From IMG/VR virus record IMGVR_UViG_2778261447_000019: a stretch of 5,014 nt of DNA; one strand, given 5' to 3'. The translations under genes were made by a program, and so were the position numbers. The stretch comes from a virus. Its lineage: Duplodnaviria > Heunggongvirae > Uroviricota > Caudoviricetes. Shown in pieces: positions 2,468 to 5,014 of this stretch. Under the pieces are notes generated by a model. That model made no database searches and had not been told where the DNA came from. It saw only the letters and a program-made list of their open reading frames with translations. Within the stretch, counting starts at the first letter, position 1. Every line of letters begins with the position of its first letter.

Positions 2468-2493
2468 TTGTCGTTTACATCCTCTTACTGAGG

Positions 2494-2569
2494 TGTGATT
2501 TAAATTAAATTCAACTGAATCACAGATCAAGTATTTTTTGTGATTCTTTTTTGTGTATACTGAATCACA
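2494..2569. promoter_or_regulatory. Divergent promoter/operator region with four alternating TGTGATT / AATCACA half-sites
   Basis: TGTGATT at 2494-2500 and 2539-2545; AATCACA at 2518-2524 and 2563-2569. An 11-bp perfect direct repeat ACTGAATCACA occurs at 2514-2524 and 2559-2569, 45 bp apart. The sites form inverted pairs (GAATCACA-N14-TGTGATTC) in an AT-rich stretch between divergent start codons at 2404 (minus) and 2592 (plus). A TATACT -10-like hexamer lies at 2556-2561. Confidence 0.5.
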
Positions 2570-2591
2570 TCTTTTGTTTAGGAGAATGCAC

Positions 2592-2928: not shown

Positions 2929-2956
2929 GGCCACCGTGACAGGTGGCCTTTTCTTT
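2929..2956 (+). terminator. Rho-independent terminator of the RHH regulator gene
   Basis: GGCCACC (2929-2935), loop gtgaca, GGTGGCC (2942-2948), followed by TTTTCTTT (2949-2956). Confidence 0.6.
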
Positions 2957-3009: not shown

Positions 3010-3080
3010 GCTCAGATTCATTTTTTGCGCAGCAGGTAAATTGTTCAGAAAGGCGGCTCCTTATCGGGGCCGCTTTTTTT
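3010..3080 (+). ncRNA. Candidate small RNA (~70 nt) bounded by the extended -10 promoter and a strong intrinsic terminator
   Basis: No plausible ORF with an RBS. It contains a 6-bp stem CCTGCT/AGCAGG (3007-3012 and 3031-3036), an AU-rich linker, and the terminator hairpin. It lies between the regulator gene and alpA. Confidence 0.3.
3053..3080 (+). terminator. Rho-independent terminator (8-bp stem with one G-U pair, followed by T7)
   Basis: GCGGCTCC (3053-3060), loop ttatc, GGGGCCGC (3066-3073), then TTTTTTT (3074-3080). Confidence 0.65.
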
Positions 3081-3196
3081 ATGTCTGAAAAACCGCGATT
3101 TTGTTGTTTTTCAGTTTCACAAGGCCGAACGAAGCCCCGCCCCTGTTCGGGCGTATATCCAGTCTTCATGGTTAAATCTCTGTATTAGTGGATGGG

Positions 3197-3223
3197 TGGC
3201 GGCTGTGTGCCGCCAGTCTTTTT
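3197..3223 (+). terminator. GC hairpin with T5 tract abutting the alpA stop codon (possible convergent or bidirectional terminator)
   Basis: TGGCGGC (3197-3203), loop tgtgt, GCCGCCA (3209-3215), then gtcTTTTT (3216-3223). On the minus strand the hairpin sits immediately after the alpA stop but is not followed by a U-tract. Confidence 0.35.
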
Positions 3224-3410
3224 AGTGAACTGCCTCGCAGCTTTCCTTCCATGCCAGAACTTCGGATAAAGACCAGCCAACGGAACGACCGCCCAGCTTA
3301 CGCCGTGATGGGAATTGTCCGGCCTTTTCCAGGCGGTAGCGGCATGAGCGGCTAAGGCCTGTTAGCTTTTCGCATTCTTTTTCACGTATAAACCGATCAG
3401 TGCTTAACAC
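3222..3410 (-). CDS. alpA: AlpA-family phage transcriptional regulator / excisionase-like protein (62 aa)
   Basis: GTG start at 3410-3408, preceded by aGGGGG with a 5-nt spacer. The sequence KLTGLSRSCRYRLEKAGQFPSRRKLGGRSVGWSLSEVLAWKE matches the AlpA/Vis-type helix-turn-helix signature (TG.SRS..YR....G.FP...KLG.RSVGW...EV..W). It sits immediately downstream of an integrase, as in CP4-57 and P4-like elements. Confidence 0.85.
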   Translation of the reverse strand: MLSTDRFIREKECEKLTGLSRSCRYRLEKAGQFPSRRKLGGRSVGWSLSEVLAWKESCEAVH

Positions 3411-3570
3411 TATTGCCCCCTTTCGTTTCTTAAAGAGTTATTTCGTGTTCTATTGCGTTGGTATGTGTCTGATTGTGTCAGGGTGATTCAGAGTTGGCAA
3501 ATGTTGGTGGCGGGTATTTTACAGAAACGGGGTGATTTTAATAAAAAACATTTTAATTCAGTATTATACA

Positions 3571-3601
3571 AAGGCATAAAATCTCGTTTTATGCCTTTTT
3601 T
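3571..3601. terminator. 11-bp perfect hairpin flanked by an A-run and a T-run in the int-alpA intergenic region (likely int terminator, possibly bidirectional)
   Basis: AAGGCATAAAA (3571-3581), loop tctcg, TTTTATGCCTT (3587-3597), then TTTTTTCTC. The minus strand has an A-tract before the stem and a TATAAT (plus 3563-3568) immediately after it, which could act as a -10 for alpA. Confidence 0.4.
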
Positions 3602-3691
3602 CTCACTATTTAAAGCGTTATTCGCTAATGTATAAAAAACCAGTTGAGCATTAAAAATCATCAACTTATAAATCTGTATACTTTTTGGCCT

Positions 3692-3745
3692 CTTGTTCGT
3701 GGTTGTTTCACGTTGTTGCGTATTGTTGCACGTTGTATCTGTGCA
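3692..3745. repeat. Iteron-like array: five tandem TTGTw-containing units with 10-bp phasing
   Basis: TTGTT at 3693, 3702, 3712 and 3722, and TTGTA at 3732. Units are gttgtttcac / gttgttgcgt / attgttgcac / gttgtatctg. TTGTTtCACGTTGT (3702-3715) and TTGTTgCACGTTGT (3722-3735) match at 13 of 14 positions. The array lies 40-90 bp downstream of the integrase stop. Confidence 0.5.
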
Positions 3746-3784
3746 CTTATCCAGTATGCGCATACTGAAAAAACACGAAAAAAA

Positions 3785-5014
3785 TTATTTTCTTCTGGCT
3801 ACTGGTAGCGTGGTTACGTTTTCATGTGCTCCCGCCAGTATCTCCAACCGCTCCACCCACATATCCAGCGCATTGCGTTTCGCATCCAGATAACGGGAAT
3901 GATTATAAACTCGCTGCATCCCTGGCATCTGGTGGCCTGTAAGCTGCTCCACGACGTGAGGATCCACGCCTAAATCGTTCAGCATGGTTGTAAAGGTGCG
4001 CCGGATGTCATGCAGTGACCAGTGAGGGTGTTTAAGCCTCCTGTGCACTAATCTGCCGTACTGCGACACGCTGGTTTCCTGTTTCACTTCCCCCAGCAAT
4101 AAGCCCGTGTGCCTGTTCTGCTCCACCAGCTGCGTGATGAACGGCAGTATCGCTTCCGGTATGGGCCGGAATATGGCTACCTTCGTTTTGCTGTGCTCCT
4201 TCGGAACGGTCCAGAGCATTTCGGTAAAATCCCACTCGCCGATCTCCGATAACCTCAGTTCTACTGTCCGGCATCCGAAAACAATCAGGAGGCGGATTAG
4301 TGCGACGTAGTAAGGGGAAAATATTTTTTTGTCCAGTGCCTGCAATAATTCGCCCAGTTCTCTGGTGCTTAAGACACGTTCGCCTATATCCGGTTTTTTC
4401 CCAACGTCAGCCACACTCATATCATCAAGAACGTTGCTGATTGCATAGCGCCGCTTCCGGCAGAACTTAAGCGCCTGTTTGCATGTCTGTAGCAGGAACC
4501 CGGCGGAAACAGGGGCTTGCTTTGCCACCCGATCAAAACAGGCCAGCCAGTGCCGTAGCTCGCATTTATCCAGCGGCATAGGGCCAATGTGCTGTATTAC
4601 GTGATTATTTAGCCGCTTTTTCAGTGGGTCATAATCCACACGGTTTTCCTTTGCGTACGACTCAAGCCAGTAGGTGAGCGCATCGCCAACCGTTACAGGC
4701 TTTAACGCTTCCTGTACGGTGTAATTCATCTCATGACGTGGATTTTTCCCCTCAGCCAGCCATGCGCGACACTGGGCGGCTTTTTCCCTGGCTGATTTCA
4801 GGCTCAGATCAGGATAATTTCCCAGCTTAATGCGTTCCGGTGATGCCCCCCTTCCCGTTCCGGCCCTGTAAGTGAAATACCAGGTTAAAAGGCCGCTGGT
4901 TGAATGCCTGACGGTCAGGTTTCCACCGTCATTAAGAAAGACTGTTTTTTGGGCGGGTGTGCCGTTGATTTTCCTTAGCTGTGTATCACTCAGTTTGTTA
5001 AGTGCTCTGCGCAT
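3785..5014 (-). CDS. int: Tyrosine recombinase, P4-type phage integrase (409 aa)
   Basis: The N-terminus LSDTQLRK...DGGNLTVRHSTSG...WYFTYR is an arm-binding-like domain typical of P4-family integrases. The C-terminal catalytic box has HDIRRTF (H-x-x-R) and RVYNHSRY (catalytic Tyr). The start codon occupies the last three bases of the window, so the true 5' end and the adjacent att site or tRNA cannot be verified. Confidence 0.9.
   Translation of the reverse strand: MRRALNKLSDTQLRKINGTPAQKTVFLNDGGNLTVRHSTSGLLTWYFTYRAGTGRGASPERIKLGNYPDLSLKSAREKAAQCRAWLAEGKNPRHEMNYTVQEALKPVTVGDALTYWLESYAKENRVDYDPLKKRLNNHVIQHIGPMPLDKCELRHWLACFDRVAKQAPVSAGFLLQTCKQALKFCRKRRYAISNVLDDMSVADVGKKPDIGERVLSTRELGELLQALDKKIFSPYYVALIRLLIVFGCRTVELRLSEIGEWDFTEMLWTVPKEHSKTKVAIFRPIPEAILPFITQLVEQNRHTGLLLGEVKQETSVSQYGRLVHRRLKHPHWSLHDIRRTFTTMLNDLGVDPHVVEQLTGHQMPGMQRVYNHSRYLDAKRNALDMWVERLEILAGAHENVTTLPVARRK

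What the first reader, a model, noticed from the sequence alone, without database searches (positions are those of the whole stretch)
3692..3745. Phased iteron-like TTGTT(T/G)CAC array adjacent to the integrase 3' end
Five TTGTw units recur every 9-10 bp, one helical turn, placing them on one face of the DNA, with two near-identical 14-mers 20 bp apart. P4 alpha primase-helicase binds octamer iterons (TGTTCACC type) in ori and crr; that is recalled from the literature. The motif here (TGTTTCAC / TGTTGCAC) is similar, so this could be the replication origin or cis-replication region for the island primase encoded at 1-867. Alternatively it could be a binding array for AlpA or integrase controlling the alpA promoter.
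Basis: partly seen in the sequence, partly recalled or inferred. Interest (0 to 1): 0.5.

Follow-up and report, generated by a model that had tools for sequence, protein, structure and literature searches.

The report
Excisionase-type binding array, not an origin
The five evenly spaced TTGTT repeats between the integrase and alpA genes of this phage satellite island are real and conserved; they are not a replication origin but most likely the docking array for the island's small AlpA excisionase/activator, because the same repeats flank the island's attachment site.

Summary
Five TTGT-headed units lie exactly 10 bp apart at 3693-3742. No chain longer than 3 appeared in 2000 shuffles.

The window is the int-alpA-primase end of an EcCICFT073-family satellite (PICI). 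Its AlpA is 95% identical to EcCICFT073 AlpA.

The array is present in all 50 distinct int-alpA spacers collected. The TTGT cores are invariant while the spacers drift, and one variant gained exactly one 10-bp unit.

The origin reading fails:
- Each relative has its own iterons immediately 3' of its replication gene.
- Those iterons differ with the replicase type and never occur near alpA.
- The TTGTT array stays the same throughout.
- The P4 iteron TGTTCACC is absent from the array.

The same phased motif occurs in both attachment-site arms. There it sits beside a doubled 12-bp motif built like the annotated P4 integrase arm repeats. In EcCIEDL933-type islands it also occurs upstream of the capsid operon.

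This matches the layout of dual-purpose excisionases (186 Apl, P2 Cox, P4 Vis): direct repeats one helical turn apart, at att and at a promoter region. The published EcCICFT073 fragment that AlpA autoactivates contains the homologous array.

Best reading: AlpA operator array (about 0.55). Integrase arm-domain binding is the main rival. No binding has been shown here.

The parts
3693..3742 (+). Phased array of five 10-bp direct repeats headed by TTGT(T). On the int/alpA sense strand it reads ...ACAA. Candidate AlpA (excisionase-type) operator array.
   Evidence: establish the array and its phasing. It is conserved in 50 unique homologous spacers: TTGT core columns are polymorphic in 0 of 20 cases against 12 of 30 spacer columns. 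It is the only PWM-scored array in the window.
3703..3736 (+). The two near-identical 14-mers TTGTTTCACGTTGT and TTGTTGCACGTTGT, 20 bp apart. The sense-strand 14-mer ACAACGTGAAACAA is shared with the att arm of the closest relative.
   Evidence: family D1. (D1: L001 13837-13911 and 2417-2491 carry ACAACGTGAAACAA or GAAACAACGTGGAACAA).
3222..3410 (-). alpA: a 62-aa winged-helix protein of the AlpA/excisionase family, and the presumed binder of the array.
   Evidence: Pfam PF05930, E=5e-18. It is 95% identical to EcCICFT073 AlpA.
3785..5014 (-). Tyrosine integrase with an N-terminal arm-DNA-binding domain. It is the rival candidate binder.
   Evidence: Pfam PF13356 plus PF00589.
3472..3500 (-). 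Predicted sigma-70 promoter of alpA (TTGCCA-17-CACAAT). This is a consensus match only. The TGGCAA block is invariant, and in 49 of 50 spacers it lies 198-202 bp from the first array unit.
3463..3492 (+). Weak promoter-proximal phased units (ATGTGTCTG ATTGTGTCAG GGTGATTCAG) in the same orientation as the array, overlapping the predicted -10. This is a lead only.
   Evidence: Read. The homologous stretch in EcCICFT073 (L015 3943-3972) scores as a weak array, whereas the window copy stays below threshold.
3570..3598 (.). Conserved 12-bp-stem hairpin lying between the array and the predicted alpA promoter. The T-run is on the + strand.
   Evidence: (I2).

Best explanation
The array is an operator for the island's AlpA protein. 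AlpA is a small winged-helix excisionase-family protein that acts both as recombination directionality factor and as master activator of the satellite.

Proposed mechanism:
- AlpA monomers bind head-to-tail, one per TTGT-headed unit, on one face of the DNA.
- This forms a short bent nucleoprotein filament about 200 bp upstream of the alpA promoter.
- The same kind of array next to the integrase arm sites in both att arms lets the same protein drive excision.
- In EcCIEDL933-type islands a further copy sits upstream of the capsid operon.
- Once some AlpA is made after helper-phage induction, one protein would therefore couple self-amplification of alpA, excision and, in some islands, late gene expression.

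Shown here: the array, its phasing, its selective conservation, its recurrence at the att arms, its independence from the replicase, and its presence inside the published AlpA-responsive fragment.

Inferred: that AlpA rather than Int is the binder, and that binding activates rather than represses.
For: 1. The geometry matches the RDF binding mode. The array has five direct repeats exactly 10 bp apart. The described mode is head-to-tail binding to tandem repeats one helical turn apart, with relaxed specificity, and for dual-purpose RDFs similar sites at att and at a promoter region (PMC7498355; PMC11963761).

2. In whole islands, phased TTGT arrays of at least 3 units occur only in a few places. 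These are the int-alpA spacer, both att arms, and in L006 the region upstream of the capsid operon.

3. Integrase arm sites are better accounted for by a different motif. The doubled 12-bp motif GGTGTAGTTAAT x2 occurs only in the two arms, as four half-sites. It is built like the annotated P4 attP arm repeats, which are 12-nt tandem doublets in both arms, and like the doubled motif of HE-PICIs (PMC10111431).

4. The array shows selective conservation. It is present in all 50 unique spacers. TTGT cores are polymorphic in 0 of 20 columns against 12 of 30 spacer columns, Fisher p=0.0014. One variant has a one-unit 10-bp insertion.

5. There is an experimental link. Window AlpA is 95% identical to EcCICFT073 AlpA. 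That AlpA autoactivates the PalpA-lacZ fusion pJP2038 and triggers int-dependent excision (PMC6092414). The pJP2038 primers span L015 3628-4083, which contains the homologous six-unit array.

6. Spacing to the conserved -35 block is 198-202 bp in 49 of 50 spacers and 210 bp in the remaining one.

7. P4 has three 10-bp tandem repeats 146-175 bp upstream of vis, its AlpA homologue.
Against: No binding data exist for this protein and site.

AlpA and Int of this type always travel together in 878 E. coli genomes, so co-occurrence cannot separate them.

The cspD-site islands cut the other way. Their Int is 76% and their AlpA 60% identical to the window's. They keep TTGTTCG arrays in both arms, yet at the equivalent place downstream of int they carry a different phased array, AATATC x4. 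That pattern fits 'arm arrays follow Int, spacer array follows AlpA' at least as well as the present model.

The array lies about 200 bp from the predicted promoter, with a hairpin in between. That is unusually far for direct activation.

The published reporter fragment holds the whole spacer, so it does not localise the AlpA-responsive site. The published work also found no AlpA effect on Pint, although the int-proximal arm carries the motif.
Confidence: 0.55

Rival explanations
1. The units are arm-type sites for the integrase N-terminal domain. Int made from the upstream gene would bind the array, and the weak promoter-proximal units. It would act as a roadblock or repressor that keeps alpA silent, or would tether this region to the intasome.
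For: - Int carries an Arm-DNA-bind_3 domain.
- The motif is abundant in both att arms.
- In cspD-site islands the arm arrays persist with a 76%-identical Int whose arm-domain core is nearly unchanged. AlpA there is only 60% identical, and the spacer array has a different motif.
- Integrases are known to repress promoters through arm sites (KplE1 IntS, PMC2951348).
Against: - A separate doubled 12-bp motif, found only in the arms as four half-sites, is built like the P4 arm repeats. It is the better candidate for Int arm sites.
- About 12 TTGT units per attP plus 5-6 in the spacer is many for a tetramer.
- Strict 10-bp head-to-tail arrays are the signature of RDFs.
- An extra copy upstream of a capsid operon is hard to explain for an integrase.
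Confidence: 0.2
2. The array is a replication origin or a crr-like second site, made of iterons for the island primase.
For: The motif superficially resembles the P4 type I iteron TGTTCACC. In P4 the ori does lie upstream of the AlpA homologue vis, and crr lies 3' of the primase gene. A second site near alpA is therefore positionally conceivable.
Against: - TGTTCACC is absent from the array even at one mismatch.
- Origin-type iterons flanking AT-rich DNA lie 3' of the replication gene in every relative. This is the layout shown experimentally for EcCICFT073.
- Those iterons differ by replicase: GGTAGAGGG, CTGTCTACC, TGCGGGTTA and TCCCCACTT. None occurs in the int-alpA spacer or in the window.
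- The TTGTT array is unchanged across three replicase types.
Confidence: 0.02
3. The array is bound by some other protein, such as a helper-phage excisionase-type inducer or a host nucleoid protein, or it acts only as intrinsically bent DNA.
For: alpA expression depends on an unidentified helper-phage factor (PMC6092414). P2 Cox acts on 10-bp repeats upstream of P4 vis. Excisionase cross-talk between a PICI and its helper has been reported (PMC11773190).
Against: The same motif sits in the island's own att arms, where the island's own recombination proteins must act. The known helpers (lambda, phi80) have different excisionases. The array is 43% G+C, which is not typical for H-NS. It is not an A-tract array.
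Confidence: 0.15
4. The array is a functionless relic of a duplicated att arm.
For: A 14-nt identity with the arm sequence could reflect an old duplication.
Against: The doubled arm motif is not duplicated along with it. The cores are invariant while the spacers drift, and the unit number changes in 10-bp steps. The distance to the promoter block is constant.
Confidence: 0.05

Closest known systems
Operators of dual-purpose excisionases: 186 Apl (pR-pL and attP), P2 Cox boxes, P4 Vis, ICEMlSymR7A RdfS
   Same: They are direct repeats spaced one helical turn apart, in sets of 3-7. Similar sets occur at the attachment site and at a promoter region. The sequence requirement is loose, with a short conserved core. 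The binder is a small winged-helix RDF encoded next to the array (PMC7498355, PMC11963761).
   Different: Apl and Cox operators overlap the promoters they repress. Here the array is about 200 bp upstream of the predicted promoter, and the published effect of AlpA on PalpA is activation. Both att arms carry the motif, not just one. Binding is untested.
Phage lambda Xis X1-X1.5-X2 microfilament
   Same: Head-to-tail phased sites next to an Int arm site, between the arm site and the core in the int-proximal arm.
   Different: Lambda Xis has three sites on one arm only and no known operator outside att.
P4 PLL region: three 10-bp tandem repeats (CCACTTAAAG, annotated 'ori type 2 repeat') upstream of vis
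   Same: A 10-bp tandem direct-repeat array about 150-280 bp upstream of the AlpA-family gene of a satellite.
   Different: The motif is different (TTAAAG against TTGTT). In P4 the repeats lie within the annotated origin, next to type I iterons. From the literature cited in PMC7498355, they are a target of the helper's Cox protein.
P4 ori/crr type I iterons (TGTTCACC) and Gram-negative PICI origins
   Same: Short repeated motifs, and a superficial resemblance in sequence (TGTT.CAC).
   Different: Real iterons here lie 3' of the replication gene, occur in both orientations around AT-rich DNA, and change with the replicase. The array is unidirectional, strictly phased, independent of the replicase, and lacks TGTTCACC.
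Doubled attP motif of helper-embedded PICIs (tgTGTATTGCantgTGTATTGCa) and P4 attP arm repeats
   Same: Both are part of the same att architecture. In this family the doubled 12-bp motif GGTGTAGTTAAT x2 sits directly beside the TTGT arrays in both arms.
   Different: That motif is absent from the int-alpA spacer. The array studied here is the other, 10-bp-phased element.

Membership tests
Iteron-type replication origin (P4 ori/crr; Gram-negative PICI ori) | Repeats are the initiator's iteron (P4 type I TGTTCACC, or the island's own ori iteron) | tested here: not met
   No TGTTCACC in the array at up to 1 mismatch. The ori iteron of the closest relative (GGTAGAGGG) is absent from the window and from all int-alpA spacers examined.
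Iteron-type replication origin (P4 ori/crr; Gram-negative PICI ori) | Lies immediately 3' of pri/rep, with two iteron sets flanking an AT-rich stretch | tested here: not met
   That structure exists elsewhere (L001 7581-7868; L015 8496-8785). The array lies between int and alpA and is unidirectional (PMC6092414).
Iteron-type replication origin (P4 ori/crr; Gram-negative PICI ori) | Repeat sequence co-varies with the replication protein | tested here: not met
   There are four different ori iterons for four replicases. The TTGTT array is constant.
Iteron-type replication origin (P4 ori/crr; Gram-negative PICI ori) | Supports replication when the initiator is supplied in trans | not testable with these tools
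   Requires a plasmid replication assay.
RDF (excisionase) operator array of the dual-purpose Apl/Cox/Vis type | At least three direct repeats about one helical turn apart | tested here: met
   Five units at exactly 10 bp. Relatives have 5-7 units, and one has a 10-bp unit insertion.
RDF (excisionase) operator array of the dual-purpose Apl/Cox/Vis type | [quoted passage not shown] | tested here: met
   Phased TTGT arrays occur in both att arms of L001, L015, L006, L007 and L010.
RDF (excisionase) operator array of the dual-purpose Apl/Cox/Vis type | The element encodes a small winged-helix RDF | tested here: met
   AlpA matches PF05930. RDF activity is inferred from AlpA-triggered, int-dependent excision of EcCICFT073, whose AlpA is 95% identical.
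RDF (excisionase) operator array of the dual-purpose Apl/Cox/Vis type | The array lies in a region whose transcription responds to the RDF | tested here: inconclusive
   The homologous array lies inside the AlpA-activated pJP2038 fragment. That fragment holds the entire spacer, and the predicted promoter is about 200 bp away.
RDF (excisionase) operator array of the dual-purpose Apl/Cox/Vis type | Cooperative binding and DNA bending by the RDF | not testable with these tools
   Needs EMSA, footprinting or bending assays.
Integrase arm-type sites | Located in the att arms at fixed distance from the crossover core | tested here: not met
   This copy is about 1.3 kb from the int-proximal arm, whose doubled motif lies about 25-50 bp upstream of the int start codon (L001 13842-13861, int start 13815). 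The motif itself does occur in the arms.
Integrase arm-type sites | Motif follows the integrase arm-binding domain across relatives | tested here: inconclusive
   Arm arrays persist in cspD-site islands whose Int arm domain is conserved and whose AlpA is only 60% identical. The doubled 12-bp motif also persists and fits the P4 arm-repeat layout better.
Gram-negative PICI, EcCICFT073 family (the island carrying the array) | int-alpA co-oriented, followed by a pri/rep gene with the ori 3' of it, and phage-type capsid or packaging genes. High identity to a characterised member. | tested here: met
   Gene order in the window and in L001. AlpA is 95% identical to EcCICFT073's. The nucleotide sequence from 3122 to 5014 (alpA, spacer and int) is 88.8% identical to EcCICFT073.

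The most novel reading that the evidence does not exclude
The array is the input site of the satellite's induction switch. A helper-phage excisionase-type protein would first bind these one-turn repeats and turn on alpA, as P2 Cox does on the 10-bp repeats upstream of vis in P4. AlpA would then take over at the same sites, at both att arms and, in capsid-forming islands, at the capsid operon. This would name the cis element through which the still unidentified helper signal of Gram-negative PICIs acts. A variant of the same idea makes constitutively produced integrase the missing repressor, sitting on this array.
Probability: 0.1. Interest if true: 0.75.

Novelty: new member of a known kind. 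Interest (0 to 1): 0.4.

Why it matters
In Gram-negative PICIs, AlpA is the master switch. It autoactivates, triggers excision and is turned on by helper phages. In the papers I could search, neither its DNA site nor the helper-responsive cis element has been defined.

A short conserved motif found at the alpA upstream region, at both att arms and, in one subfamily, upstream of the capsid operon gives a concrete and cheaply testable candidate for the AlpA regulon. It would explain how one 62-aa protein couples self-amplification, excision and late expression.

The result also corrects a tempting mis-annotation. Phased TGTT-type repeats next to a P4-like integrase are not origin iterons here.

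Tried and rejected
- **RNA explanations.** Rfam at a permissive threshold found nothing at the array. RNA folding shows the array mostly unpaired; the structure lies in the flanking palindrome and hairpin.
- **Coding.** The overlapping ORFs are not annotated in any relative. Indels of 10-11 nt within or next to the array would break any reading frame.
- **P. aeruginosa AlpA antiterminator model.** That protein is an unrelated, larger Q-like protein recognising GGGACG (PMC9371919).
- **DnaA boxes.** The conserved part is TTGT, not the CAC(A) half. This was judged from the unit table, with the DnaA consensus taken from memory.
- **Rho-utilisation site on the int 3' UTR.** The same motif works in other orientations and in untranscribed att arms, and indels keep helical phase rather than composition (inference).
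- **Separating AlpA from Int by co-occurrence.** This failed. The same 878 genomes carry both.
- **PDB.** One AlpA-family structure (8c3t) exists, without a DNA complex that I could trace.
- **Phage collection.** The window has no match in the phage collection.

Full report
**What is in the window.**
The window carries four main features:
- on the minus strand, a tyrosine integrase (3785-5014, Arm-DNA-bind_3 plus Phage_integrase domains);
- on the minus strand, a 62-aa AlpA-family protein (3222-3410, PF05930);
- a block of small genes;
- the N-terminus of a D5_N primase (1-867).

The closest complete relative is an island of about 11.6 kb in E. coli LH50-c (L001). It lies between allC and allE and carries int, alpA, primase, ssb, perC and capsid genes.

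The experimentally studied satellite EcCICFT073 (L015) belongs to the same family. Its AlpA is 95% identical to the window's. Its nucleotide sequence is 88.8% identical over the alpA-int stretch, 3122-5014. About 880 of 5426 complete E. coli genomes carry this int-alpA module.

**The observation.**
The units are TTGTTCGTGG, TTGTTTCACG, TTGTTGCGTA, TTGTTGCACG and TTGTATCTGT, starting at 3693, 3703, 3713, 3723 and 3733. The period is exactly 10 bp.

The 9-mer alone is not enriched, but the phasing is. In 2000 dinucleotide shuffles the longest exact-10 TTGT chain was 3, against 5 observed.

**Conservation.**
Six E. coli spacers of 79-99% identity keep the TTGT heads in register while the five or six bases between them change.

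Adding 66 IMG/VR loci found with the integrase gave 50 distinct int-alpA spacers.
- All have the array, with 5-7 units when one mismatch to TTGT per unit is allowed.
- One variant (L059) has gained exactly one 10-bp unit.
- A CFT073-like clade has six exact units extending over the place where the window has a palindrome.
- Among 35 ungapped window-like sequences, 0 of 20 core columns are polymorphic in at least two sequences. The figures are 12 of 30 for spacer columns (Fisher p=0.0014) and 27 of 98 for flank columns.

The sequences are related, so these are not independent events. Even so, the pattern is what selection on a short phased core would give. Ten-base indels and the absence of annotation argue against coding.

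**Not an origin.**
In Gram-negative PICIs the origin lies immediately 3' of pri-rep, with two iteron sets around an AT-rich stretch. This was shown functionally for EcCICFT073 (PMC6092414).

That structure is present in every relative, with iterons that follow the replicase type:

| Island | Replicase | Origin iteron |
|---|---|---|
| L001 | primase family | GGTAGAGGG |
| EcCICFT073 (L015) | primase family | CTGTCTACC |
| EcCIEDL933-type (L006) | DUF927 | TGCGGGTTA |
| L007 | RepA helicase | TCCCCACTT |

These iterons cluster only there. They are absent from the int-alpA spacers and from the window. The P4 type I iteron TGTTCACC does not occur in the array even with one mismatch.

The array is identical in kind across all these replicase types. 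A P4-like ori/crr pair would need the same iteron at both sites, as the P4 annotation shows. That is not the case here.

**Where else the motif occurs.**
Islands inserted at three different chromosomal sites share the sequence from the int start codon outward. This places the true island end about 175 bp beyond int.

Each att arm contains two elements.
- The first is a doubled 12-bp motif, GGTGTAGTTAAT x2. Its 8-mer core occurs exactly four times per island, only in the arms.
- The second, directly beside it, is three or four TTGT-headed units at 10-bp spacing, in the opposite orientation to the spacer array.

The arm and the window array share the 14-mer ACAACGTGAAACAA.

A de novo search for any phased 4-mer, and a PWM scan, both find such arrays only at three kinds of place: the spacer, the two arms, and, in the EcCIEDL933-type island, one more copy. 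That copy reads TTGTTCGTGGTTGTTCCACGTTGTTCACTG. It lies right after a terminator and about 210 bp upstream of the capsid gene.

**Which protein.**
RDFs share a binding mode: monomers bind head-to-tail, cooperatively, to tandem repeats one helical turn apart, with loose specificity, and they bend DNA. The dual-purpose RDFs Apl, Cox and Vis use similar site sets at att and at a promoter region (PMC7498355). RdfS binds both attP and its own promoter (PMC11963761).

The present layout fits that description point for point, and AlpA is the island's only protein of that family.

The integrase arm sites are more plausibly the doubled 12-bp motif. P4, whose integrase has the same arm domain, is annotated with 12-nt arm repeats as tandem doublets in both arms. 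An analogous doubled motif was described for helper-embedded PICIs and proposed to bind the four arm domains (PMC10111431).

There is also an experimental link. EcCICFT073 AlpA activates its own promoter fusion and, when overproduced, causes int-dependent excision and replication. Mapping the published primers shows that the fusion fragment (L015 3628-4083) includes the six-unit array.

I therefore rate AlpA binding at about 0.55.

**What speaks against it.**
AlpA and Int of this type never occur apart, so co-occurrence cannot decide.

Islands at the cspD site have an Int 76% identical, with a nearly unchanged arm-domain core, and an AlpA only 60% identical. They keep TTGTTCG arrays and the doubled motif in both arms. 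Downstream of int, however, they carry a different phased array: GAATAAATCG TAGAATATCG GAAAATATCT GCAAATATCT. That motif is found nowhere else in the island.

This is compatible with two readings.
- The arm arrays belong to Int and the spacer array to AlpA.
- Alternatively, both AlpA alleles keep the same core specificity. The residues R21, R24, Y25 and E28, which I infer to lie on one face of the recognition helix, and the wing motif GGRS are invariant between the two alleles.

I cannot resolve this computationally.

The mechanism of activation is also unclear. The predicted promoter (TTGCCA-17-CACAAT, a consensus match only) is about 200 bp away, with a conserved hairpin in between. The distance from the invariant TGGCAA block to the first unit is 198-202 bp in 49 of 50 spacers and 210 bp in one. 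The distance from that block to alpA varies by a 10-bp indel. This hints at a phase constraint and at bending or looping, but shared ancestry could give the same picture.

**Comparison with the known.**
The array works like an Apl/Cox/Vis-type operator set, and it is housed in a member of the EcCICFT073 PICI family.

P4 offers a positional parallel: three 10-bp tandem repeats lie 146-175 bp upstream of vis. According to work cited in PMC7498355, P2 Cox acts on sites in P4. That keeps open the more novel possibility that a helper-phage excisionase-type protein uses this array to switch on alpA.

The papers I could search define no AlpA site and no helper-responsive element for these islands.

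**Verdict.**
This is a real, selected, phased protein-binding array. It is a new member of a known kind, the RDF operator array, and not an origin. Interest is moderate: it gives PICI biology a precise, testable cis element.

Noticed in passing
window 3570-3605: A conserved hairpin (12-bp stem) is followed by a T-run on the + strand, antisense to alpA. It lies between the array and the predicted alpA promoter. Region 3500-3620 on the + strand folds with z=-3.6. It could terminate a short + strand RNA that diverges from the alpA promoter (TTGGCA, about 15 nt, TATTTT on the + strand).
   Followed up: partly
window 3753-3768: A perfect 16-bp palindrome, CAGTATGCGCATACTG, lies just downstream of the int stop codon. 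It is conserved in window-like spacers. In the EcCICFT073-like clade it is replaced by an extra array unit. It could be a site for a dimeric regulator.
   Followed up: partly
window 3430-3442 and 3610-3622: A 13-nt direct repeat, TTAAAGAGTTATT / TTAAAGCGTTATT, has its two copies 180 bp apart. One copy is in the alpA leader and one is upstream of the hairpin. Both are largely conserved in relatives. The TTAAAG core recalls the P2 Cox-box and P4 type 2 repeat motif.
   Followed up: no
window 2490-2570: Operator-like repeats (ACTGAATCACA twice, TGTGATT inverted) lie between the + strand YlcI/YnfO-like gene (2592-2897) and the minus-strand icd-like operon. This looks like a divergent promoter-operator region.
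   Followed up: no
window 2930-2955, 3052-3080, 3195-3215: Three + strand terminator-like hairpins lie in the roughly 320 bp between the YlcI-like gene and the 3' end of alpA. The first gives a weak isrD match below threshold. Small + strand transcripts are possible.
   Followed up: no
L006 8263-8313 (EcCIEDL933-type island): A fourth copy of the TTGTT array lies directly after a terminator and about 210 bp upstream of the capsid gene. It shares 19 nt with the int-alpA array of the same island.
   Followed up: partly
L008 3810-3905; L082 9490-9550; L072-L078: cspD-site islands carry a different 10-bp phased array, (G/A)AATATC x4, at the position equivalent to the window's array. Their att arms keep TTGTTCG arrays.
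   Followed up: partly
L001 2740-2780; L007 6958-6998: Another phased array, TGTCAC x4 at 10 bp, lies near the end of the island distal to int. In L007 it sits beside a small conserved ORF and the terminase small subunit gene. It is a candidate packaging (pac/cos) recognition site.
   Followed up: no
L013 11030-11200: TGCGGGTTAT iterons in both orientations surround AT-rich DNA near the distal end of a cspD-site island. This is the same iteron as the origin of the DUF927-type island L006, although L013's own primase gene lies elsewhere. It may be an orphan or second origin.
   Followed up: no
L001 ~2340 and ~13995: The island is inserted in the 5' end of allE (crossover core about GGGATAT). 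RefSeq therefore calls allE from a downstream start codon. Related islands use roxA/phoQ and abgR sites with similar short cores (GGACATATTT).
   Followed up: partly
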